Of a stretch of DNA of 64,000 nucleotides, positions 10,561-61,820 are shown in pieces. Origin of the DNA: an uncultured Gammaproteobacteria bacterium (GTDB lineage: Bacteria; Patescibacteriota; Patescibacteriia; XYB2-FULL-38-15); assembly GCA_965231095.1 (NCBI GenBank), contig OZ246416.1:121228-185227 (forward strand), read 5' to 3'. Position 1 is the stretch's first letter. Every line of letters starts with the position of its first letter. Both the position numbers and the translations under genes were made by a program. The notes under the pieces are model-generated. The model was not told the origin of the DNA and ran no database searches. It saw only the letters and a program-made list of their open reading frames with translations.

Positions 10561-12429
10561 TTATTGGACAGTGATGGAATGGTCATTGCTGTAGAAGACG
10601 CAACCGCCGCCGCCGTTGTAGGCGCAAACGCGGAAGTGGTAAGTGCCGGCTTCTTTGACGTCCCAGGCGTAACTGCCTTTCATGTCTGGCGAGGAGGTAT
10701 AATAATATTCATCTCCGGGATAAACGGGGTTTGGCTCAATGGATTTTACCAACTTGTATCCGTAAGGTGAATTTCCGGAAAGAGCCCAAGAGAGGACGAC
10801 GATTCTTCCGGTTTTTATCCAGCCGGTCAAAGATAGTGTTCCGTAAATTTCCCCCGAGGCCGCTCCGCTTGATTTCGCGACAATTTTCAAATTATTGCTG
10901 TAGGTTCCGCAAGCGCCGCCTTCATAAACGCAGATTCTGAAGTTCCAAGTTTTTCCATCCAAAATTTTCCAGGTGTAGCTTCTGGTGTCCGGGTTTATAT
11001 AAACCGCGGAATCTCCGGGATAGCTCGGATAAGCCGAGAGAGATTTTACGAGCTTAAATCCTTTTGGCGCGGTAATTCCCGAAAGCGACCAAGAAAGATA
11101 GATTCCGTCGGTTGAGGCATAGCCCTTGAGATAGAGCGGTGATGCGACGACGGCTTCGCCTTTTCTCGTGACAATAATTTTTTTGAGGGCGGCATTTCCC
11201 GACTCGTCTTTAGCTTTAACTTCAACTGTATTAGCGCCAACTTTCAGATCAATAATTTTTTCAAAATTTCCGTTGTCGTTTTTCGCTTCCATACCGTTCA
11301 CAAAAACCCTGGCGCCCGCTTCAGTCGTTCCGCGCACCGCGACGCGAACCAGCTCGGTAGTAATTCCGTCCAGCGGTTCGGAAATATTTACCTCTGGCGG
11401 TGTATTGTCTGATAAAACTCCGAGCGGATAATCTTTTTGGCTATCCTCCTCGCGATTCCAGACATAAAAGCCATCTTGTGCGGTTTCTTCTTTGGGTAGA
11501 GGAATTTTTTTTGCCACCTCTTCGATCGGTTTTGTCATGTCAACAACCAATTCTTCTCCCTCGCTTACTTCTTTTTCCAGAGTTTCATCATTTTTTACGA
11601 TTTTTACTTTTACTTTGCTTTCTACAACCTTAACAATAACTTTTTTCTCTCCCTTTTTAACCCAGTTTGATTTTTCCGCGGCTACGCCAAAAGCCGTGCC
11701 AAGCGCGGTTGTTTCCGCGTCGCCGGATTTTACTTTATAAGTTAAGCCGGAAGTTTTATTGACGCGGCTATAAGTTTCGCCGGCGATCTGGGCGACAGAA
11801 ATATTTTTATTATTTACTTCTTCCAAAATTACGTGAGTGTTTTCGTCAAGCCGCAGGGCGCTGCCTTCGTCAAACTCCAAAACTGCTTTGCTAGCCTCGC
11901 CGGTTCTGATCTGCGATTGGCCGGCTACAGTGGTTCCAACTGCAATCGCCTCCCAATCGCTTCCATTCCAAATTTCCACTTCTCCGTCGGCAACCGATAA
12001 ATGCGCCGCAAGCGCTCCGTTAAAAATTCCGCTGGTTCCAGCCGGGCCGCGGGTAAAATAAATTCCAAGAGCCAAGACTAAAACAACCACGGCCGCGCCC
12101 GCGAAGGCGAGAGTAGTTTTACTGAGTTTCCAAGGCAGAGTCATAGAAATTTCCTTTCTTGATTCTTGGGCTTTGGCTTCCTGCTTTATTAAATTTTGAG
12201 CAGTTGCGCTTCCACCAACAAGATTAAAATATTTATGATAAAAATTTTCTCTAATGCGATTTTTTTCCGTTGCTGAAACCGTAAACTCTCCCGGCCGCGC
12301 GATCCGAGCGCCTTGGATTTTTCCCGCCAGAGCGTAGAGAATTTTTTCTTTTACGCCAAGATCAGCCGAAGTTTTTTCTTCCCAGGCCCTGGATAATTTA
12401 TTTGATTTTTTATGTAAAAATTGAAACAT
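10561..12429 (-). CDS. Anti-sigma factor, FecR-like, with C-terminal tandem Ig/FN3-like domains
   Basis: N-terminal cytoplasmic segment, single TM (LAFAGAAVVVLVLALGIYF), then a FecR-like region (GEVEIWNGSDWEAIAVG…). Two homologous C-terminal repeats end in GGxCGxYSNxxxI. Sits directly downstream of an ECF sigma gene. Confidence 0.6.
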   Translation of the reverse strand: MFQFLHKKSNKLSRAWEEKTSADLGVKEKILYALAGKIQGARIARPGEFTVSATEKNRIRENFYHKYFNLVGGSATAQNLIKQEAKAQESRKEISMTLPWKLSKTTLAFAGAAVVVLVLALGIYFTRGPAGTSGIFNGALAAHLSVADGEVEIWNGSDWEAIAVGTTVAGQSQIRTGEASKAVLEFDEGSALRLDENTHVILEEVNNKNISVAQIAGETYSRVNKTSGLTYKVKSGDAETTALGTAFGVAAEKSNWVKKGEKKVIVKVVESKVKVKIVKNDETLEKEVSEGEELVVDMTKPIEEVAKKIPLPKEETAQDGFYVWNREEDSQKDYPLGVLSDNTPPEVNISEPLDGITTELVRVAVRGTTEAGARVFVNGMEAKNDNGNFEKIIDLKVGANTVEVKAKDESGNAALKKIIVTRKGEAVVASPLYLKGYASTDGIYLSWSLSGITAPKGFKLVKSLSAYPSYPGDSAVYINPDTRSYTWKILDGKTWNFRICVYEGGACGTYSNNLKIVAKSSGAASGEIYGTLSLTGWIKTGRIVVLSWALSGNSPYGYKLVKSIEPNPVYPGDEYYYTSSPDMKGSYAWDVKEAGTYHFRVCAYNGGGGCVFYSNDHSITVQ

Positions 12430-19218: not shown

Positions 19219-19377
19219 TTTTCACCCATGTTGTAGAATAGATAAATTACCAAAGACAGCAGGCGGTCGAGAAATTTGGCCTTAATTTCCTGCCGAGGTA
19301 AAACCGTGATTTTTTCGGTTTTTCTATCGTGTTCTGTGGTAATTCCACAGTTTTTTATTTATATAATTTAAAACAAT
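19219..19377 (+). promoter_or_regulatory. rplJ promoter plus L10-leader-type attenuator
   Basis: TTGACA-17-TAGAAT promoter (about 19220-19248), then a roughly 120-nt leader ending in the hairpin ctgtgg-taatt-ccacag followed by TTTTTT immediately upstream of rplJ. This is the expected position of the L10(L12)4 autoregulatory leader. Confidence 0.55.
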
Positions 19378-34351: not shown

Positions 34352-34772
34352 CCCCTCCTTTCTAAGGAGGGGATTAAGGGGTGGTTATGGACAAAATATT
34401 TAATCGTAAATCACAAAAGTTAACGCGTCAAAATCTTCGCAACCGTCCCACGTGTTCTGAAAAAATAATTTGGCGTTATTTGTGTGGAAGTAATTTGGGT
34501 GGTTATAAATTTCGCCGCCAACAAGGAATAGGGCCGTATGTTGTTGATTTCTATTGCCCGGAAGCTAATTTAGCGTTGGAATTTGACGGGGATAGTCATT
34601 ATCAAACCGGAGCCGCTAAACGCGACAAGGTGAGACAAAAGTTTATCGAAAAAATGGGTATAAGGGTTGTGCGTTTTACGGACAATGATGTACGGGATAG
34701 TTTAGATGAAGTGCTGGCAACGGTTTTACAAAAATTACACACCACCCCTAACCCCTCCTCAGAGAGGAGGGG
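34352..34772 (+). mobile_element. DUF559 endonuclease-like gene flanked by about 34-bp palindrome-containing inverted repeats
   Basis: Left cccctcctttctaaggagggg-attaaggggtgg (about 34352-34385); right ccacccctaa-cccctcctcagagaggagggg (about 34742-34772). These are reverse complements of each other, and each contains a perfect CCCCTCC…GGAGGGG hairpin. Confidence 0.5.
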
Positions 34773-34785
34773 GAAAATTGGTTAA
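34387..34785 (+). CDS. DUF559 (Vsr-like endonuclease fold) protein
   Basis: …GYKFRRQQGIGPYVVDFYCPEANLALEFDGDSHY…RDKVRQKFIEKMGIRVVRF typical of DUF559; the C-terminal residues are encoded by the right IR. Confidence 0.75.
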   Translation: MDKIFNRKSQKLTRQNLRNRPTCSEKIIWRYLCGSNLGGYKFRRQQGIGPYVVDFYCPEANLALEFDGDSHYQTGAAKRDKVRQKFIEKMGIRVVRFTDNDVRDSLDEVLATVLQKLHTTPNPSSERRGKIG

Positions 34786-34818
34786 CCTTAGCGAAAATAT
34801 TAAAATAAGATATAATAA

Positions 34819-34862
34819 ATCTGTCAAAAGCTCTTGACAGATTGTTGTTTTTATGGTATACT
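34819..34862 (+). promoter_or_regulatory. Consensus sigma70 promoter overlapped by a perfect palindromic operator
   Basis: ATCTGTCAA-aagctc-TTGACAGAT (9-bp perfect IR, about 34819-34842); its right half-site is the -35 TTGACA, followed by a 17-nt spacer and -10 TATACT (about 34857-34862). Confidence 0.6.
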
Positions 34863-34868
34863 AATCTG

Positions 34869-35000
34869 TTGACAATGAAATAGGTCGGTTTGAGAGAGAC
34901 CCGCCATTCATCTGCTTTTTGGCGAGATGAAGACGGGAAAACCACCCTAAATTATTTGTACAAATAATTTAATTTCGGGCGGATTCTCTCCGCCCGTTTT
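34869..35000 (+). promoter_or_regulatory. Structured leader RNA ending in an intrinsic terminator (attenuator / candidate riboswitch)
   Basis: A roughly 130-nt transcript from the strong promoter contains the hairpin TTCATCT…AGATGAA, a 7-codon uORF (MKTGKPP), and the terminator gggcgga-ttctc-tccgccc + TTTTT (about 34975-34998). Three further perfect hairpins follow (agccagaac…gttctggct; ccgcac-g-gtgcgg; ctccgca-gga-gtgcggag) before the first SD. Confidence 0.45.
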
Positions 35001-35178
35001 TGTTTGTACTTTGACAATTTAGTTAGCCAGAACTAAGCAAGAAATTGACTGGTTCTGGCTAGGACAGAAGCGCAAGTTTCTGCCCGAAAAATTTCCCAAA
35101 CCGCACGGTGCGGGGAGGGGACAAGAGTATTCTAGATTTGCTCCGCAGGAGTGCGGAGCGAGGGAAGGGAATGAGGCA

Positions 35179-35454
35179 ATGAGCGTGTTCATTTTCGTCG
35201 CTTGGTTCGTATTGGCTCTCGTGTTCGGGATTCGAGAGATGATCATCATGAAGCGTAGCGGCGTTCGCAAGGAACTCTTCCTGCTCATCGCAGTTCTCGT
35301 GGTCATAGCGTTCGCGGGCGTGACGTCTCGTGCGATCGTCGAACTCGGACTCGGGATCGAGACATTGCCAGCGTTGGCGATGTCAGTGCTCGCCTGTATC
35401 GCCGTGGCGTACTTCTTACTGGAAGTTGCCTGGAACAAGATACGCCGTCCGTAG
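35179..35454 (+). CDS. Small 3-TM membrane protein (high-GC operon gene 1)
   Basis: 91 aa; SD tgagg 5 nt upstream; GC about 55%. Confidence 0.6.
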   Translation: MSVFIFVAWFVLALVFGIREMIIMKRSGVRKELFLLIAVLVVIAFAGVTSRAIVELGLGIETLPALAMSVLACIAVAYFLLEVAWNKIRRP

Positions 35455-35609
35455 TTCCTTCCAAATGTCCTGGCTTCCAAAAGTATGCCGGAAATCGTCC
35501 GAGTCCTTCGGACGGTGGCTCGTAGATTTTCCTAAATCACCGCAAGGTGACAACAAGAAAAAATACGAGCTTCGCGGAACTTGCAATGAGTTCCGCCTTC
35601 TTTCGAGAG

Positions 35610-35679
35610 CATCTGTTATTCTTCGAGCGAACGAAGTGAGTCGAGAAGTTCTCGACTTCGCTAACGCTCCGCTCGAACA
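35610..35679 (+). repeat. Dispersed palindromic repeat, copy R2
   Basis: atctgttattcttcgagcgaacgaagtgagTCGAGAAGTTCTCGActtcgctaacgctccgctcgaacag; related copies at about 27600-27640 and, inverted, at about 43925-43995. Confidence 0.6.
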
Positions 35680-35762
35680 GTAAACAGGTGAACTCGAAGA
35701 GAGGAAAGTTCATTTCGTAAATTTCTCCGCCTTTGGCGGGGACAAAAGAAGGGAAGGAAGAG

Positions 35763-35960
35763 ATGAAGATGGATCGTCAGACGAAGATCGCGATCGTGAT
35801 CAACGTGGCGTTCATGGTGTTCGTGTTCGCGTTCGTGGCGCTGACCACGGTGGGTTGTACCAACACGTTCATCGACCTGACTCCGCCGTGCGAGGCGGAT
35901 GCAGGATGCGATGACGTGGTCGACGCCTGCGACGGCGACGACGGCGAGGATTGCTCCTAG
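35763..35960 (+). CDS. Small membrane-anchored protein with acidic Cys-rich tail (operon gene 2)
   Basis: SD ggaaggaag; one TM/signal-like helix, then TPPCEADAGCDDVVDACDGDDGEDCS (4 Cys in 22 aa, net acidic). Start could be the ATG at 35769. Confidence 0.5.
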   Translation: MKMDRQTKIAIVINVAFMVFVFAFVALTTVGCTNTFIDLTPPCEADAGCDDVVDACDGDDGEDCS

Positions 35961-35989
35961 TTCATCCGACCAAGAGGAGGCAAGAAAAT

Positions 35990-36184
35990 TTGTCCACGGC
36001 CAGGGTGATTCTGGGAATTTTGGTGGTAGGCGCGGACGTCTACATCATCATGAAAGGAGTCAAAAAGTTCGAGCATCGCCGGCTTATGGTGGTCGGCGAG
36101 ATGGAGGGAGCCGGAGAAGGCCACGTGTTCTGGCTCGGCTTGTTCTTCGCTTTCGTTGGATCTTTGCTGGTTTTCGGCGAATAG
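35990..36184 (+). CDS. Small 2-TM membrane protein (operon gene 3)
   Basis: SD aagaggagg, then TTG 9 nt downstream (alternative GTG at 36005); hydrophobic helices ILGILVVGADVYII and FWLGLFFAFVGSLLVF. Confidence 0.45.
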   Translation: MSTARVILGILVVGADVYIIMKGVKKFEHRRLMVVGEMEGAGEGHVFWLGLFFAFVGSLLVFGE

Positions 36185-36201
36185 AAAGGAGACAGAAGAC
36201 T

Positions 36202-36381
36202 GTGAAGACGGCATGGGAGATCGCCAGTGCGGCGATTCTCGTTTCGATGGTGCTCGTGGTCGGAGCCGCCGACCAGATTGCGCCGCAGACGACGGTCCGG
36301 TTCATGCAGCGGTACGAACCGCAGCTGGACCAGTTCGTCAAGTTCCTGCTCGGCGAAGAGGAGGAGGTAGGCGTGAGATAG
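36202..36381 (+). CDS. Small signal-anchored protein (operon gene 4)
   Basis: SD aaaggagac, then GTG 7 nt downstream; AILVSMVLVVGAA helix; the overlapping longer ORFs in other frames are R-rich junk. Confidence 0.4.
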   Translation: MKTAWEIASAAILVSMVLVVGAADQIAPQTTVRFMQRYEPQLDQFVKFLLGEEEEVGVR

Positions 36382-36742
36382 ATAGCCGCTATCGCTTGAC
36401 CGCAAGGTCAATGTTCGCCGGCCGCGATGGAACGCGTCACCTGCGCAGTGGTGAGCCAAGAGGAAGCAGAGCCTCCGGGTTTCGGCCTAGACAAACCGAA
36501 CGGGGAGCGAAAGGTGAAAACCGATCGTTCCCCACCTTTTTTGAGAACATCGCAAAAGCGGTGGCCTCAAAAGATGTTTGAATCCTGAAGCGAGTGAATA
36601 ATCTTCGTTCAGCAAACAAATCTCTCTCTATTTCGCTGGACATCCGAGGACTATTCACTCACTCCAGGGTTTTTATTTTAACTTGCAGTTATTGGATAAA
36701 TGCGTTATTATAAATAAAAGAAAATACATTAATTCTACAAAT

Positions 36743-37183
36743 ATGGAACGTTTTTACTCAGTAATTTTTATTGTAATTTTGGCGGCGGCGGGATTTTTAA
36801 AAGCCGGCCAATACGCGGCGGACCACGGTTTTGTTACTGTTGATGACATAAAAGTTAAAGTGGAAATTGTCGATGAGCCGCTCGAGATGGCCAAGGGTTT
36901 GAGTAATCGGAAAAGTTTGGATGAAGGTCGTGGCATGCTTTTTGTTTTTGCCGAGCCGGGCCAGCCGGCTTTTTGGATGAAAGACATGGAATTTCCCATT
37001 GATATTATTTGGATTAAAAATGATGTAGTTATTGATATCGCACCAAATCTTCCGGTTGTGGCCGCGGAATTTTTATCAACTTACAGCCCGAAAGAGCCCG
37101 CAAATTATGTTTTGGAAGTTAACGCCGGTTTTGCCGAAGAGAATGGAATTAAAGTGGGGGACACAGTTGATATTAGAATTTAG
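36743..37183 (+). CDS. DUF192 (COG1430) protein
   Basis: GMLFVF…PAFWMKDMEFPIDIIWI signature of DUF192; N-terminal TM. Confidence 0.65.
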   Translation: MERFYSVIFIVILAAAGFLKAGQYAADHGFVTVDDIKVKVEIVDEPLEMAKGLSNRKSLDEGRGMLFVFAEPGQPAFWMKDMEFPIDIIWIKNDVVIDIAPNLPVVAAEFLSTYSPKEPANYVLEVNAGFAEENGIKVGDTVDIRI

Positions 37184-51371: not shown

Positions 51372-54083
51372 ATGTCATTGCTCGAAAAGATCCTTGGTGA
51401 TCCAAATAAAAAAACAATAGAAAAAATAATGCCGATTGTCGGGCAAATAAACGAACTCGAAGGAAAATTCGAGTCGTTTTCTTTTGATGAATTAAAGGGG
51501 ATGACGGCAAGTTTTAAAGAACGCTTGGCAAAAGGTGAGGCTTTGGAAGATATTTTGCCCGAGGCATTTGCCGTAGTACGCGAGACGGCAAAGCGCGTTT
51601 TGGGCCAGCGGCATTTTGACGCGCAGTTAATCGGCGGCGTTATTTTGCATCGCGGTCAGATCGCGGAAATGAAAACCGGTGAAGGAAAAACTTTGACCGC
51701 GACACTGGCCGTGTATTTGAATGCGCTCGCGGGCGGCGGAGTTCATGTTGTCACCGTTAATGATTATTTGGCGAAAAGAGATGCGACTTGGATGGGAAAA
51801 ATTTATCACGCATTAGGAATGTCGGTTGGTTGTATTGGGCACGACGCGGCGTTTTTGTATGATCCGGAATATAAGAATGAGGCGGCGGCGGGAGATGGCA
51901 GCCAAACGGCCAGTTTCAAAGTTGCGGAAGAATTTTTGCGACCGGTAGCGCGAAAAGAATCTTACGCCGCGGATATTCTTTATGGCACAAATAACGAATT
52001 TGGTTTTGATTATTTGCGCGACAACATGGTGACGAGTTTGGAAAATATGGCGCAGCGCCAGTTGAATTTCGCGATTGTTGATGAAGTTGACAGCATTTTA
52101 ATTGATGAAGCGCGAACGCCTTTGATTATTTCCGCGCCAGCCGAGGAGTCGGGAGAACTTTACGCGAAATTTGCCGATCTCGTGCGGCGGCTAAAAGAAA
52201 ATGAAGATTATAATATTGATGAAAAAATGCGCGCGGCGACACTGACCGAAGCGGGTATCGCCAAAATGGAAAAATGGTTGGGGGTGGGAAATATTTATAC
52301 CTCGGGCGGAATTACCATGGTTCATCATATTGAGCAAGCGTTGCGCGCCGAGACTTTATTTAAACGCGACCGGGATTATGTTGTCCGAGAGGGAGAGGTG
52401 ATAATTGTTGATGAATTTACCGGACGGTTGATGATTGGCCGGCGGTACAGCGAAGGCTTGCATCAAGCGATTGAAGCGAAAGAAGGCGTGCGCGTTCGCG
52501 AAGAATCAAAAACTTTGGCCACCGTCACTTTTCAAAATTTATTTCGGCTTTATAAAAAACTTGCCGGCATGACCGGTACCGCCCTAACCGAAGCGGAAGA
52601 ATTTTCCAAAATTTATAATTTGGAAGTTGTTTCCATTCCGACCAACAAACCAATGGTCCGCGCTGATTTGGCTGATAGAATTTATCGGACGGAAATGGGA
52701 AAATTTGCGGCGGTGGTCCGCGAAATTAAAGAACGCCATGAAAAAGGTCAGCCAGTTTTGGTGGGCACAATTTCCATTGAGAAAAATGAAATTTTAAGCC
52801 AGATGCTCGAGCGCGAAGGAATTACGCACCAAATTTTGAACGCAAAAAATCACGAAAAAGAAGCGGAAATTATTGCTCAAGCCGGACGAGCAGGCGCGGT
52901 GACCGTCGCGACCAATATGGCCGGCCGCGGCGTTGATATTATTTTAGGAGGAAACCCGGCTAATCCAGAAGAAGCAAAAAAAGTTCGGGAATTTGGTGGT
53001 TTGCATATTCTCGGCACTGAACGTCACGAATCTCGCAGAATTGATAATCAGTTGCGCGGTCGTGCCGGACGCCAGGGCGATCCTGGTTCATCGCAATTTT
53101 ATCTTTCGCTTGAAGATAATTTGATGAGAATTTTTGCCGGCGACCGATTAAAAGGTTTGATGACGCGGCTCAATATGCCGGAAGATATGCCGATTGAAAA
53201 TAAAATGGTTTCTCGCTCGCTTGAATCGGCACAGCGCCGCGTGGAAGGTCATAACTTTGATATCAGAAAACATTTGCTTGAGTACGACGATGTCATGAAT
53301 AAACATCGTGAAGTGATTTATAAAAAACGCCGCGACATTTTGGCGGCGGAAAATAGCAAAGATAAAGTTTTGGAAATGGTGGAGGATGAAATTGAACAAG
53401 TTGTTTTATTTCATACCGCTTCAGAACAGGAAGGGGATTGGAATTTGGAAGAAATTTATGAAGTGGTTGGGACAATTTTCCCGGTGCCGCTGGAAGTGCG
53501 CATAAAAATGGAAGATCTTAAACGCTGGGCTGGTGATAAGGCACACGACGCGGCGGTTCGCACGCGCATCATCGAATATTTGATGGAACTCGCGCGTGGA
53601 GCTTATGAAAATTTAGAAAAGAGAATTTCCGAGCAGGCGGAAAAAATAAAACAGGATGGAGAAAAAATAATGCGCCAAATCGAGCAGGCGATGATGCTTC
53701 GGGCGATTGATTCACTTTGGGTTGATCACTTAAGCGCGGTTGATTATTTGCGCACGGGAATTGGTCTTCGCGGTTATGGCCAGCATGATCCGCTTGTTGA
53801 ATACAAAAAAGAAACATACAGAATGTTTCAGGAATTGATGCATTTTATAAATCGGGAAGTTGTTTATAATATTTATAAAGTCGGCTTGGAAACAAAAACC
53901 GCGCCGTCACTTTTAGATCGGCAAGGAGTAAAAATGTCCGCTCCGGCAAAAGAAGGAGATAGCCGAAACGCGCCGGCTGATATCAAAGCCAAACCTCGTA
54001 CGGCCGAAGGAGAAAAAATCGGCCGCAATGATCCATGTCCTTGCGGGAGTGGGAAAAAGTATAAAAAGTGTCATGGGAAGTAG
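51372..54083 (+). CDS. secA: Protein translocase subunit SecA
   Basis: DEAD-motor Walker [10 protein letters not shown], preprotein cross-linking domain, C-terminal zinc-binding [14 protein letters not shown]; 903 aa. Confidence 0.95.
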
Positions 54084-54132
54084 GAGCTGACAAATAGAGC
54101 CGTTTCCGTCCGCAAACTGCGGATAAAGGGAA

Positions 54133-54163
54133 AAACCCCGTGCGATGAGCACGGGGTTTTTCT
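54133..54163 (+). terminator. Rho-independent terminator after secA
   Basis: aaaaccccgtgc-gatga-gcacggggttttt. Confidence 0.75.
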
Positions 54164-54265
54164 ATGCCAAAATCCCGATCTCGAAAAAATAAATACTGCT
54201 CGTCGAAGGTCGAGGTACGCGGCACCAGAGTCCGCAAGCTTACAAAAGTTGACACAACACCGAGT

Positions 54266-54526
54266 ATGAAAAACATCACACAAGTGAAGAAAAACATACG
54301 CGAAGAAGTTCGCGGAAAGGTCATGCGGGAGCGTATCCGGGCCGTCGCCGAAAGTTTGGCCAAAGACCTCGAAGACAATATCGCCGATGAGGTCGGCAAC
54401 CTAACTGGAAAGCTGACGACGGACTTCCTGGATGGAGGATCAGAAATCGAATCGGAGCTCATGGGCTACGCCTTCGATCAGATCAACGACGCCCTGCTCG
54501 GTGAGATCAAGAAAGAACTCAAATGA
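54266..54526 (+). CDS. Phage-island hypothetical protein
   Basis: Start uncertain (track ORF begins at 54164); helical, acidic C-terminus. Confidence 0.4.
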   Translation: MKNITQVKKNIREEVRGKVMRERIRAVAESLAKDLEDNIADEVGNLTGKLTTDFLDGGSEIESELMGYAFDQINDALLGEIKKELK

Positions 54527-54623
54527 CCACGGGTCGATTGATAGCTCAATCGAAGTCTAGTCAGAGACTTGGATGCGACAACAAACAGAGCTACATCAAC
54601 GACCCCGACGAGCAACCAAACGT

Positions 54624-54815
54624 ATGAACGCAATCACTTACGAGCAAGCGAAGAAAACCTTCACCATAGCATCCGAAGCCATCGCCTTCCTGGTGACTCT
54701 CGACATGCTAATCCTCTTCGCATCGCTCGCTCAAATCATGGTGGAGGGCCAGACCGGACACTGGAGTCCTTTCTGGCGGGCACAAGCGGATCTGGTGTTG
54801 AGACTCTTCACATGA
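54624..54815 (+). CDS. Small hydrophobic protein (63 aa)
   Basis: TM helix IAFLVTLDMLILFASLAQIMV; stop overlaps the next start in ATGA. Confidence 0.45.
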   Translation: MNAITYEQAKKTFTIASEAIAFLVTLDMLILFASLAQIMVEGQTGHWSPFWRAQADLVLRLFT

Positions 54816-55135
54816 GAGATCTCAAGCCGACCCGCGCGGTCACCTACCGCAGATACGGAACTCCAGCAGTGATCCTTGAAGGGAAATGGCTTACGGATCG
54901 CTACAAATTGAAGATAGGTGACCGCATTGATGTGGAGTTCCTGGATAAAGAAATACGGCTCCGGAAGTCGAACCGGGCCGCTCAGAAAAAGAAAATCTCC
55001 CCGAAGGGAGATGATCAGCAAATTAATTATATCAATCCACCTTCGGGCAAGTCAAATAACAATTATGAACAACCAAGCACAACCAACAGCAACGAGGGTG
55101 CGACCGAGAGAAACGGAGAAGGAAACGACAGATAG
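54812..55135 (+). CDS. SymE-like / AbrB-fold (SpoVT-AbrB) protein
   Basis: RAVTYRRYGTPAVILEGKWLTDRYKLKIGDRIDVEFLDKEIRL parallels E. coli SymE (Y…YP…IP.ItLkGqWLe.aGF..G..VdV); low-complexity N/S/G tail. Confidence 0.45.
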   Translation: MRDLKPTRAVTYRRYGTPAVILEGKWLTDRYKLKIGDRIDVEFLDKEIRLRKSNRAAQKKKISPKGDDQQINYINPPSGKSNNNYEQPSTTNSNEGATERNGEGNDR

Positions 55136-56321
55136 CTTCTTCGCGCCGATTGGCAACACCAAGCCCTACTTCAAAGCGGCCTTCCAAGGCTTCGCGGGTA
55201 GCGGCAAAACATTCACCGCAGCGCAGGTCGCGGTCGGACTGCACAAGCGAATAGGTTCGAAAAAACCGATCGTAATCTTCGACACCGAACAAGCATCAAA
55301 ATTCCTCAAGCCGCTTTTCGCGGAAGCCGGAATCGAAGTGCTCGTCCGCGAATCGAAGTCACTGGCCGACCTACGGCAAACGATGGAAAAGATGCGCTCC
55401 GGAATATCGGACATCCTTCTCATCGATTCCATCTCGCACGTATGGGAGGGGTTCCTCCAATCCTACGCAGAAAAAGTTCACCGGACACGCCTGGAATTCC
55501 AGGACTGGGGAATCATCAAGCCGACATGGAAGCGGGAATTCTCCGACCCATTCGTGAGCGACGGGTACCACGCGATCTTCACCGGCCGCGCTGGGTACGA
55601 GTACGACAACGAAAAGAATGCCGACACCGGCAAACGCGAAATCTTCAAGTCCGGAATCAAGATGAAGGTCGAAGGCGAAACCGCCTACGAGCCGGACATG
55701 CTCGTCCTCATGGAGCGCTTCGAAGAAGTGCTCGGAGACGACAAGAAGGTCTGGCGCGAAGCCACGATCATCAAAGACCGAAGCACCCTGCTCGACGGCC
55801 GGACTTATAAAAACCCGACCTATGAGAACTTCGCGCCGATAGTAGAAGCCCTGCTCACCGATCCAATTCCGAGAGACACGGTAGTCATGCCTGAATCGGA
55901 CACCGGCTTACTCTTCCGAACCGAGGAGGAAAAAGCCGAATGGCGCAGAGAGCGCGACAAATGGATAGAGGAACTAGATGGTCTCCTTATCCGCATCGCA
56001 CCCGGCGCGGTCGGCCGAGACAAGCAGCTAAAGCTTGACCTACTGGATCGAGTATTCGGAACGACCTCAATGACAGCAATCGGCGAGCTCCGGCCTGAAC
56101 GCCTGGCCGACGGCTATAAGAAGCTGGGCCTTGAAGCCGTGTCGATGGGCATCGCAGAAATTGTAGAACTCCCGGATGGGCGCAAACGCCTAGTCTCAAA
56201 GCTGCCTCCTAATGGCAACGGGAATGGAAACGGAAATGGGAATGGGAATGGGCACTCTCACACCGAAGAAAAGTCGAAGCCCGCTCCGGTCCCAGCAAAG
56301 AAAGGAACTAAGAAAAAGTAA
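55065..56321 (+). CDS. Phage P-loop ATPase (AAA_24 / Sak4-like) with C-terminal extension and (GN)7 repeat
   Basis: Walker A AFQGFAGSGKTFTAAQ, Walker B-like ILLIDSISHVW; the C-terminal about 170 aa are unassigned; ends with PPNGNGNGNGNGNGNGH. Confidence 0.55.
   Translation: MNNQAQPTATRVRPRETEKETTDSFFAPIGNTKPYFKAAFQGFAGSGKTFTAAQVAVGLHKRIGSKKPIVIFDTEQASKFLKPLFAEAGIEVLVRESKSLADLRQTMEKMRSGISDILLIDSISHVWEGFLQSYAEKVHRTRLEFQDWGIIKPTWKREFSDPFVSDGYHAIFTGRAGYEYDNEKNADTGKREIFKSGIKMKVEGETAYEPDMLVLMERFEEVLGDDKKVWREATIIKDRSTLLDGRTYKNPTYENFAPIVEALLTDPIPRDTVVMPESDTGLLFRTEEEKAEWRRERDKWIEELDGLLIRIAPGAVGRDKQLKLDLLDRVFGTTSMTAIGELRPERLADGYKKLGLEAVSMGIAEIVELPDGRKRLVSKLPPNGNGNGNGNGNGNGHSHTEEKSKPAPVPAKKGTKKK
56207..56250 (+). 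repeat. In-frame hexanucleotide tandem repeat (GGNAAY)x7 encoding (Gly-Asn)7
   Basis: aatggcaacgggaatggaaacggaaatgggaatgggaatggg. Confidence 0.8.
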
Positions 56322-56404
56322 CCACCGGCGTTAGCTTCCGACTCTGCCCTCATCGCGGAAGCGTGAGGTCAGAGATCGGAAGCCGACAAAGGATCAAACA
56401 TCTT

Positions 56405-56779
56405 ATGGGAATAGACATCTACGCGCGCTGGAAAAACCAGACGCCAAAGCAAAAGAAAAAGCAGATCACTGGCTTCTCAGTGGAGCACGGCAATGTCGGG
56501 TACTTGCGTGAAGCGTACCGGGGAGAGCACTTCGCAACGCGATACTTGTGCCGCGAAGCCTTCGGGAAAAACAACGAAGCAAAAATCCCGGCCAAGCTTC
56601 TACGCGAACGATTGCCAAGAACTCTCGAAGTGGTCGAACAACGAGAGCGAACGATTTATAAGCAAACGGATCAAAAGAAAATCGACAAAGTGAAGCAAAG
56701 CTTCGTTGACTTCGTGGATCTCTGCGAACGGAAAGAGAAAGAAACCGGAGAGCCATGCACGATAATCGCCAACTACTGA
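56405..56779 (+). CDS. Phage-island hypothetical protein
   Basis: 125 aa from the internal ATG; no recognisable motif. Confidence 0.45.
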   Translation: MGIDIYARWKNQTPKQKKKQITGFSVEHGNVGYLREAYRGEHFATRYLCREAFGKNNEAKIPAKLLRERLPRTLEVVEQRERTIYKQTDQKKIDKVKQSFVDFVDLCERKEKETGEPCTIIANY

Positions 56780-56781
56780 CC

Positions 56782-57057
56782 ATGAAATACGCATTCAACC
56801 TCGAATGGAACGAGCTTCCAGAAGAACTAAGGGAAGCAAAAATCCGGGAGTACATCCTCGCCGGAGACAAGCGTGACTGCGAAGAATGCGATGGCGTGGG
56901 AGAGATTCCTACGGCAATGGAACGAGGCGACATAAAAGCCAGCAAGCCATGCAGCAATTGCAGTGGAACCGGCCGAGTCAATCCTGACCCGGACGACCTG
57001 CACCAGCAAGAGGAAGCAGAAGAAGACATCCGCATTCACTTCCCGATTTACTTCTAA
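56782..57057 (+). CDS. Small DnaJ-type zinc-finger protein (two CxxCxGxG motifs)
   Basis: CEECDGVG and CSNCSGTG; acidic C-terminal tail. Confidence 0.5.
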   Translation: MKYAFNLEWNELPEELREAKIREYILAGDKRDCEECDGVGEIPTAMERGDIKASKPCSNCSGTGRVNPDPDDLHQQEEAEEDIRIHFPIYF

Positions 57058-57136
57058 CGGCTCTCGATTCTGTCCTGACCGCGAGAGCGTCAGGCCAGAA
57101 ATCGGGGAGCTGTTTCCCTTTCGTCCAACAAAAAAC

Positions 57137-58087
57137 ATGGAAAACGAAACAACCTCAATAATTCCAAACTCGACTCAAATCCCGCACCTCATTATCCGGG
57201 AGTGGATGCCACTCCTGAGCGATGTAGATCTGAGGATTCTTCTTGTCGTTGCGGACCAGACGTTGGGATGGATTGAAGATCCGGAAACAAAACGCCGCAA
57301 AGAGAAAGATTGGATTAGTCAGGGTCAGCTGATGAAGAAAATAAACCGCAGCGATCGCGCCATTCAAAACTCACTCAAGAGATTGGTAGACGAACTGAGA
57401 ATTATCCAAGCCCACGACGAAGCGGGTGTACTCCTAGACTCGCCACAAAAGCGCATGAAGTGCGGAGGAAAAATCTTCTACCGCTTGAGTCTTAAACGGC
57501 CACAACAACCCACCCCCGAAACAAGTTCGGGGGCAGGAAAAACCTCAAACTTTTCACCTCCCCCGAAAAATCTTCGTGCGAAGAATTTTCGGGCTACAAA
57601 AGAAACCGGTTTTACAAAAGATAAGTCCTTCGGACAAGCAAGCTTGATTCAAGAATTTAAAAAGGATGTGGATAAGCCTGTGGATAAACCAATCCTGCCA
57701 ACGCGCTACTTCTTCGGGAAATTCTCTCAACTCACCTGGGGCATTCGGCATACTCGGCCGATCTTCGTGAAGTTCAAAGACGGCAATCTGCTCAAGCATG
57801 CGCTGCGCCATCTCACTGAATTTCAACTTGAGATGGAGCTCGTGTGGTTTTTGCAAAACAAGCGAGAGATGAAACCGACAATCGGTGCGGCTTTATGCAA
57901 AGAAGTCATCGACGATTTTATTCAGGCAAGCCTAAAAGAGTACGGATTCTACAACACGCTAGAGCGAACCGCGCTGCAGTACAGCCGACGCGAACCGGAA
58001 GAAGTCCGTGGCGAAGCTGCCGCAATGGTCGAAGCGCTGAAGAAGCTGAAGGACTCATTTTCAATGAGGCAAACAAACAGCATATGA
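57137..58087 (+). CDS. Putative phage replication-initiation / DNA-binding protein (winged HTH)
   Basis: LRILLVVADQTLGW…ISQGQLMKKINRSDRAIQNSLKRLVDE resembles DnaD/RepA/phage-O type wHTH domains; ends in ATGA overlap with the MTase start. Confidence 0.4.
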   Translation: MENETTSIIPNSTQIPHLIIREWMPLLSDVDLRILLVVADQTLGWIEDPETKRRKEKDWISQGQLMKKINRSDRAIQNSLKRLVDELRIIQAHDEAGVLLDSPQKRMKCGGKIFYRLSLKRPQQPTPETSSGAGKTSNFSPPPKNLRAKNFRATKETGFTKDKSFGQASLIQEFKKDVDKPVDKPILPTRYFFGKFSQLTWGIRHTRPIFVKFKDGNLLKHALRHLTEFQLEMELVWFLQNKREMKPTIGAALCKEVIDDFIQASLKEYGFYNTLERTALQYSRREPEEVRGEAAAMVEALKKLKDSFSMRQTNSI

Positions 58088-59319
58088 GACACATCGATTT
58101 ATTTTCAGGCATCGGCGGATTCGCTTTGGCGATCGAAAAAGTGTGGCCGAATTCCGATCACATCTTTTGCGATAACGATTCCTACTGTCAAAAATTACTA
58201 AAACTAAGATACCCAAACTCAAAAATCTATGGCGACATCAAAGAGATCAAATCTATTACCGACTCCGACTGGCTCGGACTACAAAAGCCGGGGAAGAAAC
58301 AGCAAGCAGTTAGGCGTCGACAATTATTTAAAGTCGATATCCTCACGGGGGGATTCCCATGCCAGCCATTCTCTCAGGCCGGAAAAAGACGAGGGACGAG
58401 CGATGACCGCTACCTCTGGCCGGAAATGCTTCGAATCATTCGACTCACGAATCCGCGATGGGTCATCGCTGAAAACGTGCGTGGGTTACTTACTATGCAA
58501 AACGGGTTGGTATTCGAACAAGTGTGCCTTGACTTGGAAGCCTCCGGCTACGAAGTCCAACCGCTCATTATTCCAGCTGTCGCCGTCAACGCTCCGCATC
58601 GAAGAGACAGGATCTGGTTTATTGCTCACGCCATCAGCGATCCAGCCGATCGAAAGAAAAAAAGCGGAAAGCTACCTGAAGCGCCAAATAAGCAGAAACA
58701 AAACGGGTCGCAATACAGTCCCGCCCGGCAATCTTTACGAGCAACTCTTGGCTGGGGGAGCAACCGACCTGAGGAAGACATCATTGTGGCCGGTGCTTTT
58801 GGGCACGCCGAAAGCACAAGACAGCCGTGCGGCAATGAGAGATCGGGGAAAACACAATATGGGGGAACAGGTTCAAGAAGCCATCAACGCTCTGCTTCCC
58901 ACACCGAGAGTAAGCGAGGTCGAGGGGGCGCCGGTAAAGAACGCGGAGTTAAAGAATGGGCGATGGAGCAGGATGAATCAAAAGGGCGTGAGATTCGGAG
59001 TAAAGGTGAAAGACGTACTGGCCGTATTGCCTACGCCACGAGCGGGGAATCCGGGAAGCAGGCCAAACAAAAAAGGCGGAAAGATTTTGAACGAGGAAGT
59101 TGGGAAAGGAATTGGCTTGAAGTTGCAGCCGAACTTTGTGGAATGGATGATGGGCTACCCGCAAAACTGGACGAATTTGAATTATCAAAATCAAGACATC
59201 GGATAGAGAGACTTAAGGCTCTAGGGAATGCGATCGTGCCGCAAGTCGCGACAAAGATCATGCAGGCAATCAAAAAGACGGAAGAAAACTTTGGCCTCAC
59301 TCGAAGCATTCGGAATTGA
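58084..59319 (+). pseudogene. DNA (cytosine-5)-methyltransferase disrupted by two frameshifts (or phase-variable)
   Basis: Frame A has motif I DLFSGIGGF, IV GGFPCQPFSQAG, VI ENV and VIII RRDRIWF. After the A7 tract at about 58657-58663 the protein-like sequence continues only in frame B (+1): PTP-type TRD motifs LLTPSA, LWP…TPKAQDS, LPTPRVSE, and motif IX FVEWMMGYPQNWT. Motif X (RLKALGNAIVPQV) is back in frame A after about 59180. Both frames are open for about 980 nt. Confidence 0.7.
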
Positions 59320-59415
59320 ATGTCCGTGTTTTTCGAGTGGGGCTAACCCACTGTTCGCCTGAGGTCGACAGGCGGTCAAGAAAAGATAAAGAAATTATAA
59401 AGAAAAGTTAAAGCT

Positions 59416-61796: not shown

Positions 61797-61820
61797 AGAA
61801 AAGATAAATAGAAAAGCAGT

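What the first reader, a model, noticed from the sequence alone, without database searches (positions are those of the whole stretch)
34819..36381. High-GC, SD-driven four-gene operon of tiny membrane proteins behind a consensus promoter, a perfect operator palindrome and a terminated leader
A textbook TTGACA-17-TATACT promoter has its -35 embedded in a perfect 9-bp inverted repeat (ATCTGTCAA-n6-TTGACAGAT). A roughly 130-nt leader follows, with a 7-codon uORF ending in Pro-Pro, an intrinsic terminator, and three more perfect hairpins. Four ORFs of 59-91 aa follow, each with an AGGAGG-type SD and each predicted to be membrane-anchored. One ends in an acidic tail with 4 Cys in 22 residues. The whole unit is about 55% GC in a roughly 38% GC genome whose native genes lack SD sequences. 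It looks like a horizontally acquired, tightly regulated small-protein system. Candidate roles are toxin/immunity, a bacteriocin-like peptide, or metal handling. It could also be a riboswitch-controlled module.
Basis: partly seen in the sequence, partly recalled or inferred. Interest (0 to 1): 0.7.

Follow-up and report, generated by a model that had tools for sequence, protein, structure and literature searches.

The report
RNA-rich small-membrane-protein operon in Falkowbacteria
The flagged stretch is a real, conserved operon of a candidate-phyla-radiation bacterium (Ca. Falkowbacteria) that encodes a tiny cysteine-rich lipoprotein and three small membrane proteins, and whose untranslated parts are previously undescribed structured RNAs: a terminator-containing leader, a repeated five-helix spacer that appears to mask the next gene's ribosome-binding site, and a conserved 3' hairpin.

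Summary
The consensus promoter, the 10-bp perfect dyad over the -35, the terminated ~135-nt leader, the further hairpins, four SD-preceded ORFs of 59-91 aa, and a GC anomaly (GC3 0.72-0.85 against 0.37-0.50 in host genes) in a genome that almost lacks SD sequences are all present. The background is about 44% GC, not 38%. The 7-codon uORF lies in a window-specific insertion and is not conserved.

The unit is not a recent private acquisition. It sits at the same locus (GT4 gene ... DUF192 gene) in at least 12 Falkowbacteria lineages, always GC-rich. A conserved frame (promoter/dyad, leader, ORF3, ORF4, 3' hairpin) surrounds a variable set of Cys/Asp-rich lipoprotein cassettes. The window carries a minimal version. 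ORF2-4 evolve under purifying selection.

The non-coding modules are structured RNAs with compensatory base changes and match no Rfam family. The leader can fold as terminator or antiterminator, so it is a candidate riboswitch or attenuator. The intercistronic "E" module starts at the upstream stop codon with UUCCUUCC, which pairs with the downstream SD, suggesting translational coupling.

Toxin/immunity, bacteriocin and integron readings found no support. A metal/Ca-binding surface role is only weakly suggested. Ligand and cellular function remain unknown.

The parts
34818..34843 (+). Perfect 10-bp dyad AATCTGTCAA-n6-TTGACAGATT. Its right arm contains the -35 hexamer. Read as RNA from upstream it is a hairpin followed by GUUGUUUUU.
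   Evidence: The arms are invariant in 10 lineages while the 6-nt spacer varies. L005 carries a symmetric double change, AATTTGTCAA/TTGACAAATT. The RNA hairpin is -11.9 kcal/mol, z = -3.6.
34834..34862 (+). Sigma-70-type promoter TTGACA-17-TATACT with an extended -10 TG. Predicted transcription start is about 34869.
   Evidence: 11 of 12 matches. Nearly invariant in relatives. Same TTGACAG-type -35 as the promoters upstream of the L10 leader and the L21 gene.
34883..34947 (+). Leader hairpin, a candidate sensor. P1 is GGU(C)GGUUU paired with AAACC-ACC. It has an invariant internal loop GAGAGAGA (34892-34899). P2 is CCCGCC/GACGGG, carrying a window-specific inserted hairpin that holds the non-conserved uORF (34927-34950).
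   Evidence: P2 shows compensatory changes: GC:8/CG:4 at one pair and CG:8/GC:3 at another. P1 is invariant. No Rfam match.
34948..34971 (+). A/U hairpin (UAAAUUAUUU-GUAC-AAAUAAUUUA). Together with CCACCC (34942-34947) and GGGCGG (34977-34982) it forms the predicted antiterminator.
   Evidence: L092 replaces it with a different, longer hairpin at the same place, which supplies the compensatory pairs counted.
34976..35003 (+). Intrinsic terminator of the leader: 8-bp GC-rich stem, invariant loop UUCUC(UC), then UUUUUGUUUG.
   Evidence: Invariant in 13 leaders. The loop is complementary to the GAGAGAGA internal loop.
35006..35178 (+). Second half of the leader: four hairpins (35024-35061, 35062-35085 capped by GCAA, 35101-35113, 35140-35159), then the purine-rich SD of ORF1.
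   Evidence: The whole leader folds at -121.8 kcal/mol, z = -6.45. By inspection, the first and last hairpins keep pairing through different sequences in L002 and L006.
35179..35454 (+). ORF1, a 91-aa protein with three hydrophobic segments. It is a variable cassette gene.
   Evidence: GC3 is 0.73. Only itself is found among 5.8 billion proteins, but it is 33% identical to a 93-aa ORF at the equivalent place in L003 and L082.
35452..35762 (+). Intercistronic 'E' RNA module. It comprises the TAG stop of ORF1, the anti-SD-like UUCCUUCC (35455-35462), helices P1-P3a, the invariant P4 hairpin GCGGAAC/GUUCCGC with a pyrimidine tail (35574-35603), the long P5 (35602-35698), a small hairpin (35725-35741), and the SD GGAAGGAA (35752-35759).
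   Evidence: MFE is -139 kcal/mol, z = -7.75. Across 20 copies in 12 loci, 96.2% of cells are paired and 22 of 38 pairs show changes on both sides. No Rfam match.
35763..35960 (+). ORF2, a 65-aa prolipoprotein. The mature form is a 33-34-aa acidic peptide with four further Cys. It is the short form of the locus's large Cys/Asp-rich lipoproteins.
   Evidence: The mature part is almost identical in L002 8313-8462. dN/dS is 0.28. Larger paralogues hit PF11617, PF02412 and NF033662; ORF2 itself hits nothing.
35990..36184 (+). ORF3, a 64-aa two-helix membrane protein with the conserved loop KKFERRRLMVVGE. TTG start 9 nt after GAGGAGG.
   Evidence: 18 homologues among 5.8 billion proteins; 6 representatives among 1.84 billion. 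dN/dS is 0.16-0.33.
36202..36381 (+). ORF4, a 59-aa single-pass membrane protein with a conserved C-terminal helix and an acidic end. GTG start 9 nt after AAAGGAGA.
   Evidence: 16 homologues, including an identical one on an 886-kb NCBI contig. dN/dS is 0.37-0.54.
36502..36542 (+). First 3' terminator-like hairpin (GGGGAGCGA...UCGUUCCCC) followed by ACCUUUUUU.
   Evidence: -22.3 kcal/mol, z = -4.9. Conserved in relatives.
36580..36683 (+). Long conserved 3' hairpin with the invariant loop sequence UCUCUCUCU (36621-36629), followed by UUUUUAUUUU. It marks the end of the island.
   Evidence: -37.2 kcal/mol, z = -5.9. 94.5% of cells paired; 4 pairs with changes on both sides among 7 sequences.

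Best explanation
The region is one transcription unit, a clade-specific Falkowbacteria locus for cell-envelope proteins.

GENES. Relatives carry one to three large Cys/Asp-rich lipoproteins (MopE-type, TSP-3 and acidic double-disulfide repeats). This genome has only a 3-TM protein (ORF1) and a 33-34-aa lipid-anchored acidic four-Cys peptide (ORF2). Two small membrane proteins (ORF3, ORF4) are conserved at the end of the locus where that part of the contig is held.

EXPRESSION, three proposed layers.
1. A host-type consensus promoter. Its -35 lies in a selected 10-bp dyad. The dyad is either an operator for an unidentified dimeric regulator, the terminator of the upstream gene, or both.
2. A leader attenuator. 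A small hairpin (P1, the GAGAGAGA internal loop, P2) competes with an antiterminator (CCACCC plus the A/U hairpin pairing with GGGCGG) for the choice between a strong intrinsic terminator and read-through. The factor that decides, whether a small ligand, a protein, or the GA/CU loop-loop contact, is unknown.
3. Ahead of internal genes, a five-helix 'E' RNA domain. Its closing helix pairs the UUCCUUCC that directly follows the upstream stop codon with the downstream SD 200-300 nt away. A ribosome finishing the upstream gene would open that helix, which gives translational coupling. The invariant P4 hairpin with its pyrimidine tail probably acts as a partial terminator or a protein-binding site.

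Two hairpins with U-runs end the unit.

SHOWN: the sequence features, their conservation, the covariation, coding selection, lack of known homologues, and the compositional anomaly.
INFERRED: the attenuation switch, the SD-masking/coupling role of E, the operator role of the dyad, and the surface (Ca/metal-binding or adhesion) role of the proteins.
For: - Synteny and conservation of the frame in 12 or more lineages.
- Dyad arms are invariant while the spacer varies, and L005 has a symmetric double substitution.
- Leader: 95.4% of cells paired and 5 compensatory pairs, with 0 of 500 shuffles reaching this for four of the five measures and 1 of 500 for further pair types.
- In four lineages, a transcript that ends after the terminator's 5' arm folds into the CCACCC:GGGCGG antiterminator with P1 open. 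The full-length leader folds into P1/P2 plus the terminator in L002, L003 and L006; in the window the full-length fold shows the terminator but pairs GGUUU within the GAGAGAGAC run instead of P1.
- E module: 20 copies, 96.2% paired, 22 of 38 pairs compensatory, slid controls at most 7.
- P3a is capped by a GNRA tetraloop (GCAA, GCGA or GUAA) in the copies inspected.
- In 15 of 16 copies the first 17 nt (stop codon plus the following bases) pair with the SD region with probability 0.67-1.0.
- In the single-gene relative L005 the P4-like hairpin is followed by UUUUUUAUU and ends the unit.
- Coding status: GC3 > GC1 > GC2 periodicity, dN/dS below 1, lipobox and TM segments.
- Paralogue domains.
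- A known precedent for a long-range mRNA pairing next to a translation start, together with translational coupling, is the E. coli IF3-L35-L20 operon (PMC1888825).
Against: - There are no expression data. The transcription start, termination efficiency and coupling are all predictions.
- P1, the terminator, P4, the anti-SD/SD pair and the GA/CU loops are invariant. They carry no covariation signal, and their conservation could reflect protein binding or DNA-level constraints.
- The CM-derived alignments lean towards the modelled structure.
- Anti-SD/SD complementarity is expected to some extent for any CU-rich and GA-rich pair.
- One E copy (L002c) does not show the predicted pairing (maximum probability 0.15).
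- The host makes almost no use of SD sequences, so whether GGAAGG works as an SD here is unknown.
- No regulator gene is linked.
- All four proteins lack any characterised homologue, so the cellular role is a guess.
Confidence: 0.6

Rival explanations
1. The leader is a new class of riboswitch. The P1/GAGAGAGA/P2 hairpin binds a small molecule or ion, possibly with a loop-loop contact to the terminator loop UUCUCUC, and sets termination. Given the products, the ligand could be Ca2+ or a transition metal.
For: - Conserved small hairpin with a covarying P2.
- Invariant unpaired purines.
- Mutually exclusive terminator and antiterminator folds in four lineages.
- No linked protein regulator.
- The downstream genes encode membrane and metal-motif proteins.
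- This reading is compatible with the best explanation; it is one version of layer 2.
Against: - No match to any of 4227 Rfam families, even at E <= 10.
- The motif is tiny and was found in only about a dozen closely related lineages. That fits a protein-binding leader or a purely kinetic attenuator equally well.
- The P2 loop tolerates large insertions.
- No candidate ligand can be derived from the sequence.
Confidence: 0.25
2. It is a cassette array maintained by recombination. The E modules act mainly at the DNA level as recombination sites (attC-like, or as homology blocks) that let lipoprotein genes be swapped. The high GC comes from recombination-linked biased gene conversion or from repeated import of foreign genes.
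For: - Gene content between conserved E copies differs between close relatives, and homology breaks exactly at the E and leader borders.
- E is 90-92% identical between lineages whose flanking genes are about 72% identical.
- Synonymous divergence between the window and L002 is lower in the island (0.16-0.44) than in the flanking GT4 gene (0.83).
- GC3 is high in every lineage.
Against: - No integrase or recombinase lies within the gene lists of the long loci.
- E is not a single imperfect hairpin with R/L boxes. It has five helices, GNRA caps, strand-specific SD and terminator-like features, and it starts at a stop codon. These are features of an RNA.
- Homologous recombination between repeats needs no dedicated site, so cassette turnover may simply be a by-product of the RNA repeat.
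Confidence: 0.2
3. It is a toxin/immunity or bacteriocin-like module. The Cys-rich ORF2 peptide would be an exported antimicrobial or toxin, and the small membrane proteins would confer immunity or export.
For: Small membrane proteins next to a small secreted Cys-rich peptide; variable gene content among strains.
Against: - No hit to any bacteriocin, immunity, defence or phage family.
- ORF2 has a lipobox, so it is predicted to stay lipid-anchored rather than be released.
- Its larger paralogues are 190-490-aa repeat-containing lipoproteins.
- There are no modification enzymes, ABC exporter or protease in the locus.
Confidence: 0.07
4. The dyad is only the intrinsic terminator of the upstream gene and happens to overlap the -35. 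The leader transcript is a stand-alone small RNA, not a regulator of the downstream genes.
For: - The dyad as RNA is a 10-bp hairpin followed by GUUGUUUUU, and the scan calls it terminator-like on both strands.
- The leader has its own strong promoter and strong terminator.
- Its CU-rich terminator loop could pair with GA-rich translation start regions.
Against: - No conserved second promoter exists between the leader terminator and the first gene in relatives (inspection).
- The leader and the genes are always adjacent and on the same strand.
- The hairpin has only 3 G-C pairs.
- A terminator role for the dyad does not exclude an operator role.
Confidence: 0.15

Closest known systems
Rho-independent transcription attenuators and riboswitch expression platforms (terminator/antiterminator leaders)
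   Same: A strong promoter is followed by a conserved hairpin, a GC-rich terminator with a U-run, and an alternative pairing that sequesters the terminator's 5' arm.
   Different: No known aptamer family matches. The sensor candidate is a very small hairpin with a GA-rich internal loop complementary to the terminator loop. The effector is unknown, and the motif was found only in one Falkowbacteria clade.
Translational coupling through mRNA structure. The example cited is the E. coli infC-rpmI-rplT (IF3-L35-L20) operon (PMC1888825). The atpHA mRNA and the MS2/Qbeta phage RNAs are further examples from my own knowledge.
   Same: A long-range pairing occludes nucleotides at the downstream translation start. 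The partner strand lies where an upstream-translating or terminating ribosome would unwind it. Here that strand starts 0-3 nt after the stop codon.
   Different: Here the two strands are separated by a 200-300-nt autonomous five-helix domain. That domain is repeated before several genes of one operon, contains an invariant terminator-like hairpin, and is conserved better than the genes. No repressor protein is known. The host otherwise hardly uses SD sequences.
Integron gene-cassette arrays with attC sites
   Same: An array of same-strand, promoter-less, variable genes behind one promoter, separated by structured repeats whose structure is better conserved than their sequence.
   Different: There is no integrase, no attI, and no R/L core sites. 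The repeat is multi-helical with GNRA loops and carries translation signals. Several cassettes are paralogues that arose by duplication including the repeat.
MopE-motif, TSP-3 and acidic double-disulfide repeat lipoproteins (PF11617, PF02412, NF033662)
   Same: The large cassette proteins of relatives carry these repeats. ORF2 shares their signal peptide, their lipobox and the first Cys/Asp-rich module.
   Different: ORF2 itself does not reach any model threshold. It is only 33-34 residues after processing. None of these families has a function established for this lineage.

Membership tests
Any Rfam family (riboswitches, leaders, ribozymes, sRNAs) | Covariance-model match at or near the gathering score | tested here: not met
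   The only gathering-level hit in the window is the L10 leader at 19232-19366. In 34600-36900 at E <= 10 there are only chance-level miRNA/sRNA matches. There were no hits in 12 related loci or in the L005 leader.
Intrinsic-terminator attenuator | GC-rich hairpin followed by a U-run in the 5' leader | tested here: met
   34976-35003: 8-bp stem with 7 G-C pairs, then UUUUUGUUUG. Invariant in 13 leaders.
Intrinsic-terminator attenuator | Mutually exclusive antiterminator structure | tested here: met
   Thermodynamic folding of truncated and constrained leaders in 4 lineages gives CCACCC plus the A/U hairpin paired with GGGCGG. This is a prediction only, and both strands are invariant, so there is no covariation.
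Intrinsic-terminator attenuator | Condition-dependent read-through | not testable with these tools
   Needs Term-seq, in vitro transcription or reporter assays.
Riboswitch (generic definition) | Conserved aptamer with covariation-supported helices and direct ligand binding | tested here: inconclusive
   P2 covaries (GC:8/CG:4 and CG:8/GC:3). P1 and the loop nucleotides are invariant. Ligand binding cannot be tested here.
Structure-mediated translational coupling | The downstream SD is base-paired to a segment within the footprint of a ribosome ending the upstream ORF | tested here: met
   UUCCUUCC follows the TAG stop directly in most E copies. Predicted pairing probability with the SD region is 0.67-1.0 in 15 of 16 copies. 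This is computational only.
Structure-mediated translational coupling | Downstream translation depends on upstream translation | not testable with these tools
   Needs reporter fusions with premature stops, or ribosome profiling.
Integron / attC cassette array | Adjacent tyrosine-recombinase integrase (IntI) and attI | tested here: not met
   The gene lists and Pfam labels of the syntenic loci show TGT, ClpB-like, GT4, DUF559, DUF192, L21, RecR and DnaB. No recombinase is present.
Integron / attC cassette array | The repeat is a single imperfect palindrome with R''/L''-L'/R' boxes | tested here: not met
   E has five or more separate helices, GNRA caps and strand-specific signals.
Bacterial lipoprotein (ORF2) | N-terminal signal peptide ending in a lipobox with an invariant Cys | tested here: met
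   A PS51257-like pattern, FAFVALTTVGC, ends at Cys32 after a hydrophobic core and a basic N-terminus. Paralogues have AIGC, ALGC, MIGC or AFGC.
MopE-type metal-binding motif / acidic double-disulfide repeat proteins (ORF2) | Profile match above threshold | tested here: not met
   ORF2 has no Pfam or NCBIfam hit. Paralogues in L002, L003, L006 and L081 hit PF11617 (up to 2.5e-22) and NF033662 (3.3e-16).
Bacteriocin, toxin-immunity, anti-phage defence or phage lysis cassette | Homology of any product to a known family of these systems | tested here: not met
   Pfam, NCBIfam, PADLOC and PHROGs all returned nothing for ORF1-4.
Repressor-operator unit (TetR-, ArsR- or MerR-style) | Dyad-symmetric site overlapping the promoter and under selection | tested here: met
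   Arms invariant, spacer variable, and one symmetric double change in L005.
Repressor-operator unit (TetR-, ArsR- or MerR-style) | Linked regulator gene, or further operator copies | tested here: not met
   No regulator gene lies in the locus. There is no second exact half-site in 64 kb, and one-mismatch copies are at chance level. Each related locus has exactly one such dyad.

The most novel reading that the evidence does not exclude
The island may carry a set of new RNA devices that work together.
1. A new riboswitch or attenuator class whose GA-rich internal loop kisses CU-rich loops, both in its own terminator and in the 3'-terminal hairpin of the operon. That would amount to 5'-3' communication within one mRNA.
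2. A new class of intercistronic 'coupler' domains. These would fold the 200-300-nt spacer so that the upstream stop codon and the next start codon are held together. Downstream initiation would then depend on upstream termination (structure-mediated reinitiation) in an organism that otherwise initiates without SD sequences.
3. Selection for such mRNA structure, or recombination-driven biased gene conversion, would explain why the locus has stayed GC-rich for as long as the clade has existed.
Probability: 0.2. Interest if true: 0.8.

Novelty: new variant of a known kind. Interest (0 to 1): 0.62.

Why it matters
CPR/Patescibacteria are almost unexplored for RNA-based regulation. This locus offers three or four well-delimited structured RNA motifs that Rfam lacks: the leader hairpin with its terminator, the E module, the 3' hairpin, and a tRNA-like 'X' insertion in relatives. 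They can be synthesised and probed directly.

The E module would be an unusually clear natural example of a modular RNA that couples translation of neighbouring genes. It occurs in a genome that otherwise lacks SD sequences, so it bears on how such organisms start translation.

The locus is also a hotspot of variable Cys-rich surface lipoproteins in a presumably host-attached bacterium. That makes it a candidate for host-interaction or antigenic variation.

Finally, its persistent GC3 excess over a whole clade is an unexplained compositional anomaly. It argues against the usual reading of a GC island as a recent horizontal transfer.

Tried and rejected
- Known RNA families: Rfam at gathering and permissive thresholds on the window, 12 related loci and the L005 leader gave nothing relevant. 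ARAGORN found no tRNA or tmRNA in the window or in the relatives that carry the tRNA-like X insertion.
- 'Large non-coding RNA instead of genes': rejected by the GC3 > GC1 > GC2 periodicity, dN/dS below 1 and conserved protein alignments.
- Phage or plasmid origin: blastn against the phage and plasmid collections and a viral-contig scan with ORF1 found nothing.
- Remote protein homology: ORF1 is an orphan in the word-indexed search. A profile of the ORF3 family against 1.84 billion representatives found only its own small family. Pfam, NCBIfam, PADLOC and PHROGs were empty for ORF1-4.
- uORF-based attenuation: rejected because the uORF is not conserved.
- Third operator half-site at 34863: not conserved.
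- A regulon of the dyad: no other copies.
- RNAalifold on a plain MAFFT alignment of the leaders failed to recover P2 because of loop-length differences. This was resolved with covariance-model alignments.
- Exact-sequence look-ups of ORF1, the DUF192 protein and P0020 in the contig index failed.
- The metagenome pattern scan gave one chance locus pair (L089/L095) inside an unrelated high-GC coding region.
- Literature searches found no description of this locus.

Full report
1. WHAT IS IN THE SEQUENCE

The window is a Patescibacteria genome; its closest named relatives are Candidatus Falkowbacteria MAGs. It is 44.5% GC.

Between a DUF559 gene (34381-34785) and a DUF192 gene (start about 36743) lies a 1.9-kb unit whose ORFs are 54-62% GC.
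- A promoter TTGACA-17-TATACT with TG before the -10 (34834-34862; 11 of 12 matches).
- A perfect dyad AATCTGTCAA-n6-TTGACAGATT (34818-34843; 10 bp per arm).
- An intrinsic terminator at 34976-35003, about 135 nt downstream of the predicted start.
- Several further perfect hairpins.
- Four ORFs of 91, 65, 64 and 59 aa, each behind a purine-rich SD-like run.

Hydropathy gives three, one, two and one hydrophobic segments. ORF2 has a lipobox (FAFVALTTVGC), so it is a prolipoprotein with a 33-34-residue acidic, four-Cys mature part.

The remark that native genes lack SD sequences is correct. Only 4 of 40 host genes have even a 4-nt SD core upstream.

Corrections:
- The background GC is about 44%, not 38%.
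- The leader and spacer are only 46-48% GC.
- The 7-codon uORF (34927-34950) is real in this sequence but sits in a window-specific insertion.

2. ARE THE ORFS GENES?

Yes.
- They show GC3 of 0.72-0.85, with GC3 > GC1 > GC2. Host genes have GC3 of 0.37-0.50.
- ORF3 and ORF4 align with homologues down to 47-53% identity.
- dN/dS is 0.16-0.33 for ORF3, 0.37-0.54 for ORF4 and 0.28 for ORF2.
- ORF1 finds only itself among 5.8 billion proteins. It is nevertheless 31-34% identical to a 93-aa ORF at the equivalent position in L003 and L082.
- The ORF3 and ORF4 families are tiny: 18 and 16 proteins in the large collection, and 6 representatives among 1.84 billion for ORF3.
- None of the four hits Pfam, NCBIfam, PADLOC or PHROGs.

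3. COMPARATIVE CONTEXT

Loci fetched through the flanking GT4 gene, through ORF3 homologues and through a leader pattern in metagenomes show the same unit at the same place in at least a dozen lineages. That place is TGT - ClpB-like - GT4 - [DUF559] - island - DUF192 - L21 - RecR - DnaB.
- A reduced one-gene version occurs in L005.
- L007, at 63% GT4 identity, lacks the island.
- In every lineage examined the island is 54-57% GC, against 42-47% in the flanks.

The frame is conserved: promoter and dyad, leader, ORF3, ORF4, 3' hairpin. The interior varies:
- L002 has a 160-aa ORF, two large lipoproteins (490 and 359 aa) and a 49-aa mini-lipoprotein.
- L006 has three Cys-rich proteins plus an extra membrane protein.
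- L004 has one 283-aa protein.
- L003 has a 340-aa lipoprotein and an ORF1-like gene.

The large proteins carry MopE-type 'putative metal-binding' motifs (PF11617, down to 2.5e-22), TSP-3 repeats and acidic double-disulfide repeats (NF033662).

Window ORF2 is the short form of this family. Its mature peptide is almost identical to that of L002 8313-8462 and matches the first Cys/Asp module of the large paralogues.

So the window holds a minimal version of a variable lipoprotein-cassette locus. It is an old resident of the clade, not a private recent acquisition. Its GC3, its SD use and its uniform TAG stops are nevertheless unlike the host.

4. THE DYAD AND PROMOTER

Across lineages the two arms are invariant while five of the six spacer positions vary.
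- L005 carries AATTTGTCAA...TTGACAAATT, a symmetric double substitution.
- L096 has one mismatch, and L092 keeps only the inner 6 bp.

Dyad symmetry is therefore selected. Two readings fit, and they are not exclusive:
- An operator for a dimeric regulator centred just upstream of the -35. No regulator gene is linked, and no further half-sites exist.
- An RNA hairpin (-11.9 kcal/mol) followed by GUUGUUUUU that terminates the upstream gene.

The promoter resembles the TTGACAG-type promoters before the L10 leader and the L21 gene. It is a host-type promoter.

5. THE LEADER

Thirteen distinct leaders share these invariant blocks:
- GGUUUGAGAGAGAC
- AAACCACCC
- an A/U hairpin
- CGGGCGGAUUCUCUC(C/U)GCCCGUUUUU

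A covariance model (R2) aligned them. 95.4% of cells pair and five pairs have changes on both sides. No shuffle out of 500 reached the observed value for four of the five measures, and 1 of 500 did for further pair types. Slid controls gave at most 2.

The compensatory changes lie in P2 (CCCGCC/GGCGGG, CCCCCG/CGGGGG, CCCCGA/UCGGGG) and in the A/U hairpin, which L092 replaces with a different hairpin. P1 and the terminator never vary.

Folding four lineages gives these results:
- The full-length leader folds as P1/P2 plus the A/U hairpin plus the terminator in L002, L003 and L006. In the window the full-length fold has the A/U hairpin and terminator, but GGUUU pairs locally within the GAGAGAGAC run rather than forming P1. 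The isolated window hairpin 34886-34950 does fold as P1/P2.
- A transcript ending after the terminator's 5' arm folds as an extended hairpin in which CCACCC pairs with GGGCGG and P1 is open.

This is the classic attenuator logic.

The invariant internal loop GAGAGAGA is complementary to the invariant terminator loop UUCUCUC. It is also complementary to the invariant UCUCUCUCU in the loop of the 3'-terminal hairpin. I regard a loop-loop contact as a reasonable but untested idea.

No Rfam family matches.

The second half of the leader is a chain of hairpins that keep pairing through sequence replacement. In L004, L081, L094, L098 and L005 it contains an extra ~90-nt multi-helix 'X' module.

6. 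THE INTERCISTRONIC E MODULE

The 308-nt ORF1-ORF2 spacer is a copy of a repeat that precedes most internal genes of the locus. There are three copies each in L002, L006 and L081.

A covariance model (R1) collected 20 copies. The counts are:
- 96.2% of cells pair.
- 22 of 38 pairs have changes on both sides (82 cells).
- 0 of 500 shuffles reach any measure.
- Slid controls reach at most 7 pairs.

Two sequence types (CGUCCGA... and GUUCAACC...) fold alike. P3a is capped by GCAA, GCGA or GUAA in the copies inspected. P4 (GCGGAAC/GUUCCGC, then C(Y)UYUUUCGAG) is invariant. In the one-gene relative L005 the same hairpin is followed by UUUUUUAUU and ends the unit. P4 is therefore probably a weakened or conditional terminator.

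In most copies E begins at the TAG of the upstream ORF, directly followed by UUCCUUCC, and it ends with GGAAGG-type SDs. In 15 of 16 copies the partition function pairs these ends with probability 0.67-1.0. The window copy folds at -139 kcal/mol, z = -7.75.

The simplest functional reading is SD masking that is relieved when a ribosome reaches the upstream stop codon. This is translational coupling through structure, as described for the IF3-L35-L20 operon (PMC1888825). The compact domain would hold stop and start close together.

The ends are invariant, so this helix is supported by conservation and thermodynamics, not by covariation.

E is not attC-like. It is multi-helical and strand-specific, and no integrase is present.

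7. THE 3' END

There are two terminator-like structures:
- 36502-36542.
- A long hairpin at 36580-36672 followed by a U-run to 36683.

Both are conserved. Across the pairs of both structures, 94.5% of cells pair and four pairs have changes on both sides among seven sequences. The shuffle support is weaker here.

8. COMPOSITION PUZZLE

Flanking genes are saturated at synonymous sites between the more distant lineages (GT4 dS 1.9 between the window and L004). Even so, the island keeps GC3 near 0.75-0.85 everywhere.

Between the window and L002, island dS (0.16-0.44) is lower than that of GT4 (0.83). E is 90-92% identical where flanks are about 72% identical.

Three explanations are possible, and none was tested:
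- Selection on synonymous sites, for example for RNA structure.
- Frequent recombination between lineages with GC-biased conversion.
- Repeated import of cassettes.

9. VERDICT

The non-coding parts form a set of conserved, covarying RNA modules absent from Rfam, and the operon is the minimal form of a variable surface-lipoprotein locus.

Function at the cellular level remains unknown. My best guess is Ca2+/metal-binding or adhesive envelope proteins, with ORF3 and ORF4 as conserved membrane partners. That guess rests only on paralogue domains and topology.

Noticed in passing
window 54100-64000: A block of about 50% GC with a strong A-over-T skew starts right after secA (51372-54083). It encodes an AAA_24 ATPase, a phage replication-O-like protein, a C5 cytosine methylase, a ParB-N6/N4 methylase fusion and a large terminase subunit. 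This looks like a prophage or integrated phage in a CPR genome.
   Followed up: partly
L004 about 11405-11490; L005 about 11365-11450; also L081, L094, L098 (leader, second half): An extra ~90-nt 'X' RNA module with four to five helices and clear compensatory changes, for example CCUAGC/GCUGGG against CCGGUC/GACCGG against CUCAGC/GCUGAG. Its 3' half looks like a tRNA T-arm (GUGGG-UUCAAUU-CCCAC) stacked on a 7-bp acceptor-like stem. Neither ARAGORN nor Rfam calls it. It is absent from the window's leader. It could be a tRNA-like processing signal or a second sensor.
   Followed up: partly
window, whole (40 genes sampled): The genome initiates translation essentially without SD sequences. Upstream regions are A/T-rich, and only 4 of 40 have a 4-nt SD core. 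The four island genes are the exception.
   Followed up: partly
window 19232-19366: Ribosomal protein L10 leader (RF00557, 59.4 bits). It is the only Rfam gathering-level hit in the window. It sits behind a TTGACAG-type promoter like that of the island.
   Followed up: no
L082 about 7125-7150 and 7780-7805; L092 about 3050-3140; L098 about 2420-2560: Small palindromic insertions have landed in loop or apical regions of leader and E hairpins without destroying the surrounding helices. They include CCTGCCTACCGGCAGG and a GTCATCC...GGATGAC MITE-like element.
   Followed up: no
L001 (ENA contig k119_159690), equal to window 34838-35829: An independent 992-nt assembly fragment is identical to the window. 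It breaks inside the dyad at one end and inside ORF2 at the other, suggesting that assemblers fragment this locus at its repeats.
   Followed up: no
window 34381-34785, and the equivalent place in L003, L006, L081: A DUF559 (Vsr-like endonuclease fold) gene, flanked by CCCCTCC...GGAGGGG palindromes, is present between GT4 and the island in some lineages and absent in others (L002, L004, L082). It behaves like a small mobile insertion next to the island promoter.
   Followed up: no
window 35452, 35958, 36182, 36379: All four island ORFs end in TAG. The upstream ORFs of most E copies in relatives also end in TAG, directly followed by UUCCUUCC.
   Followed up: partly
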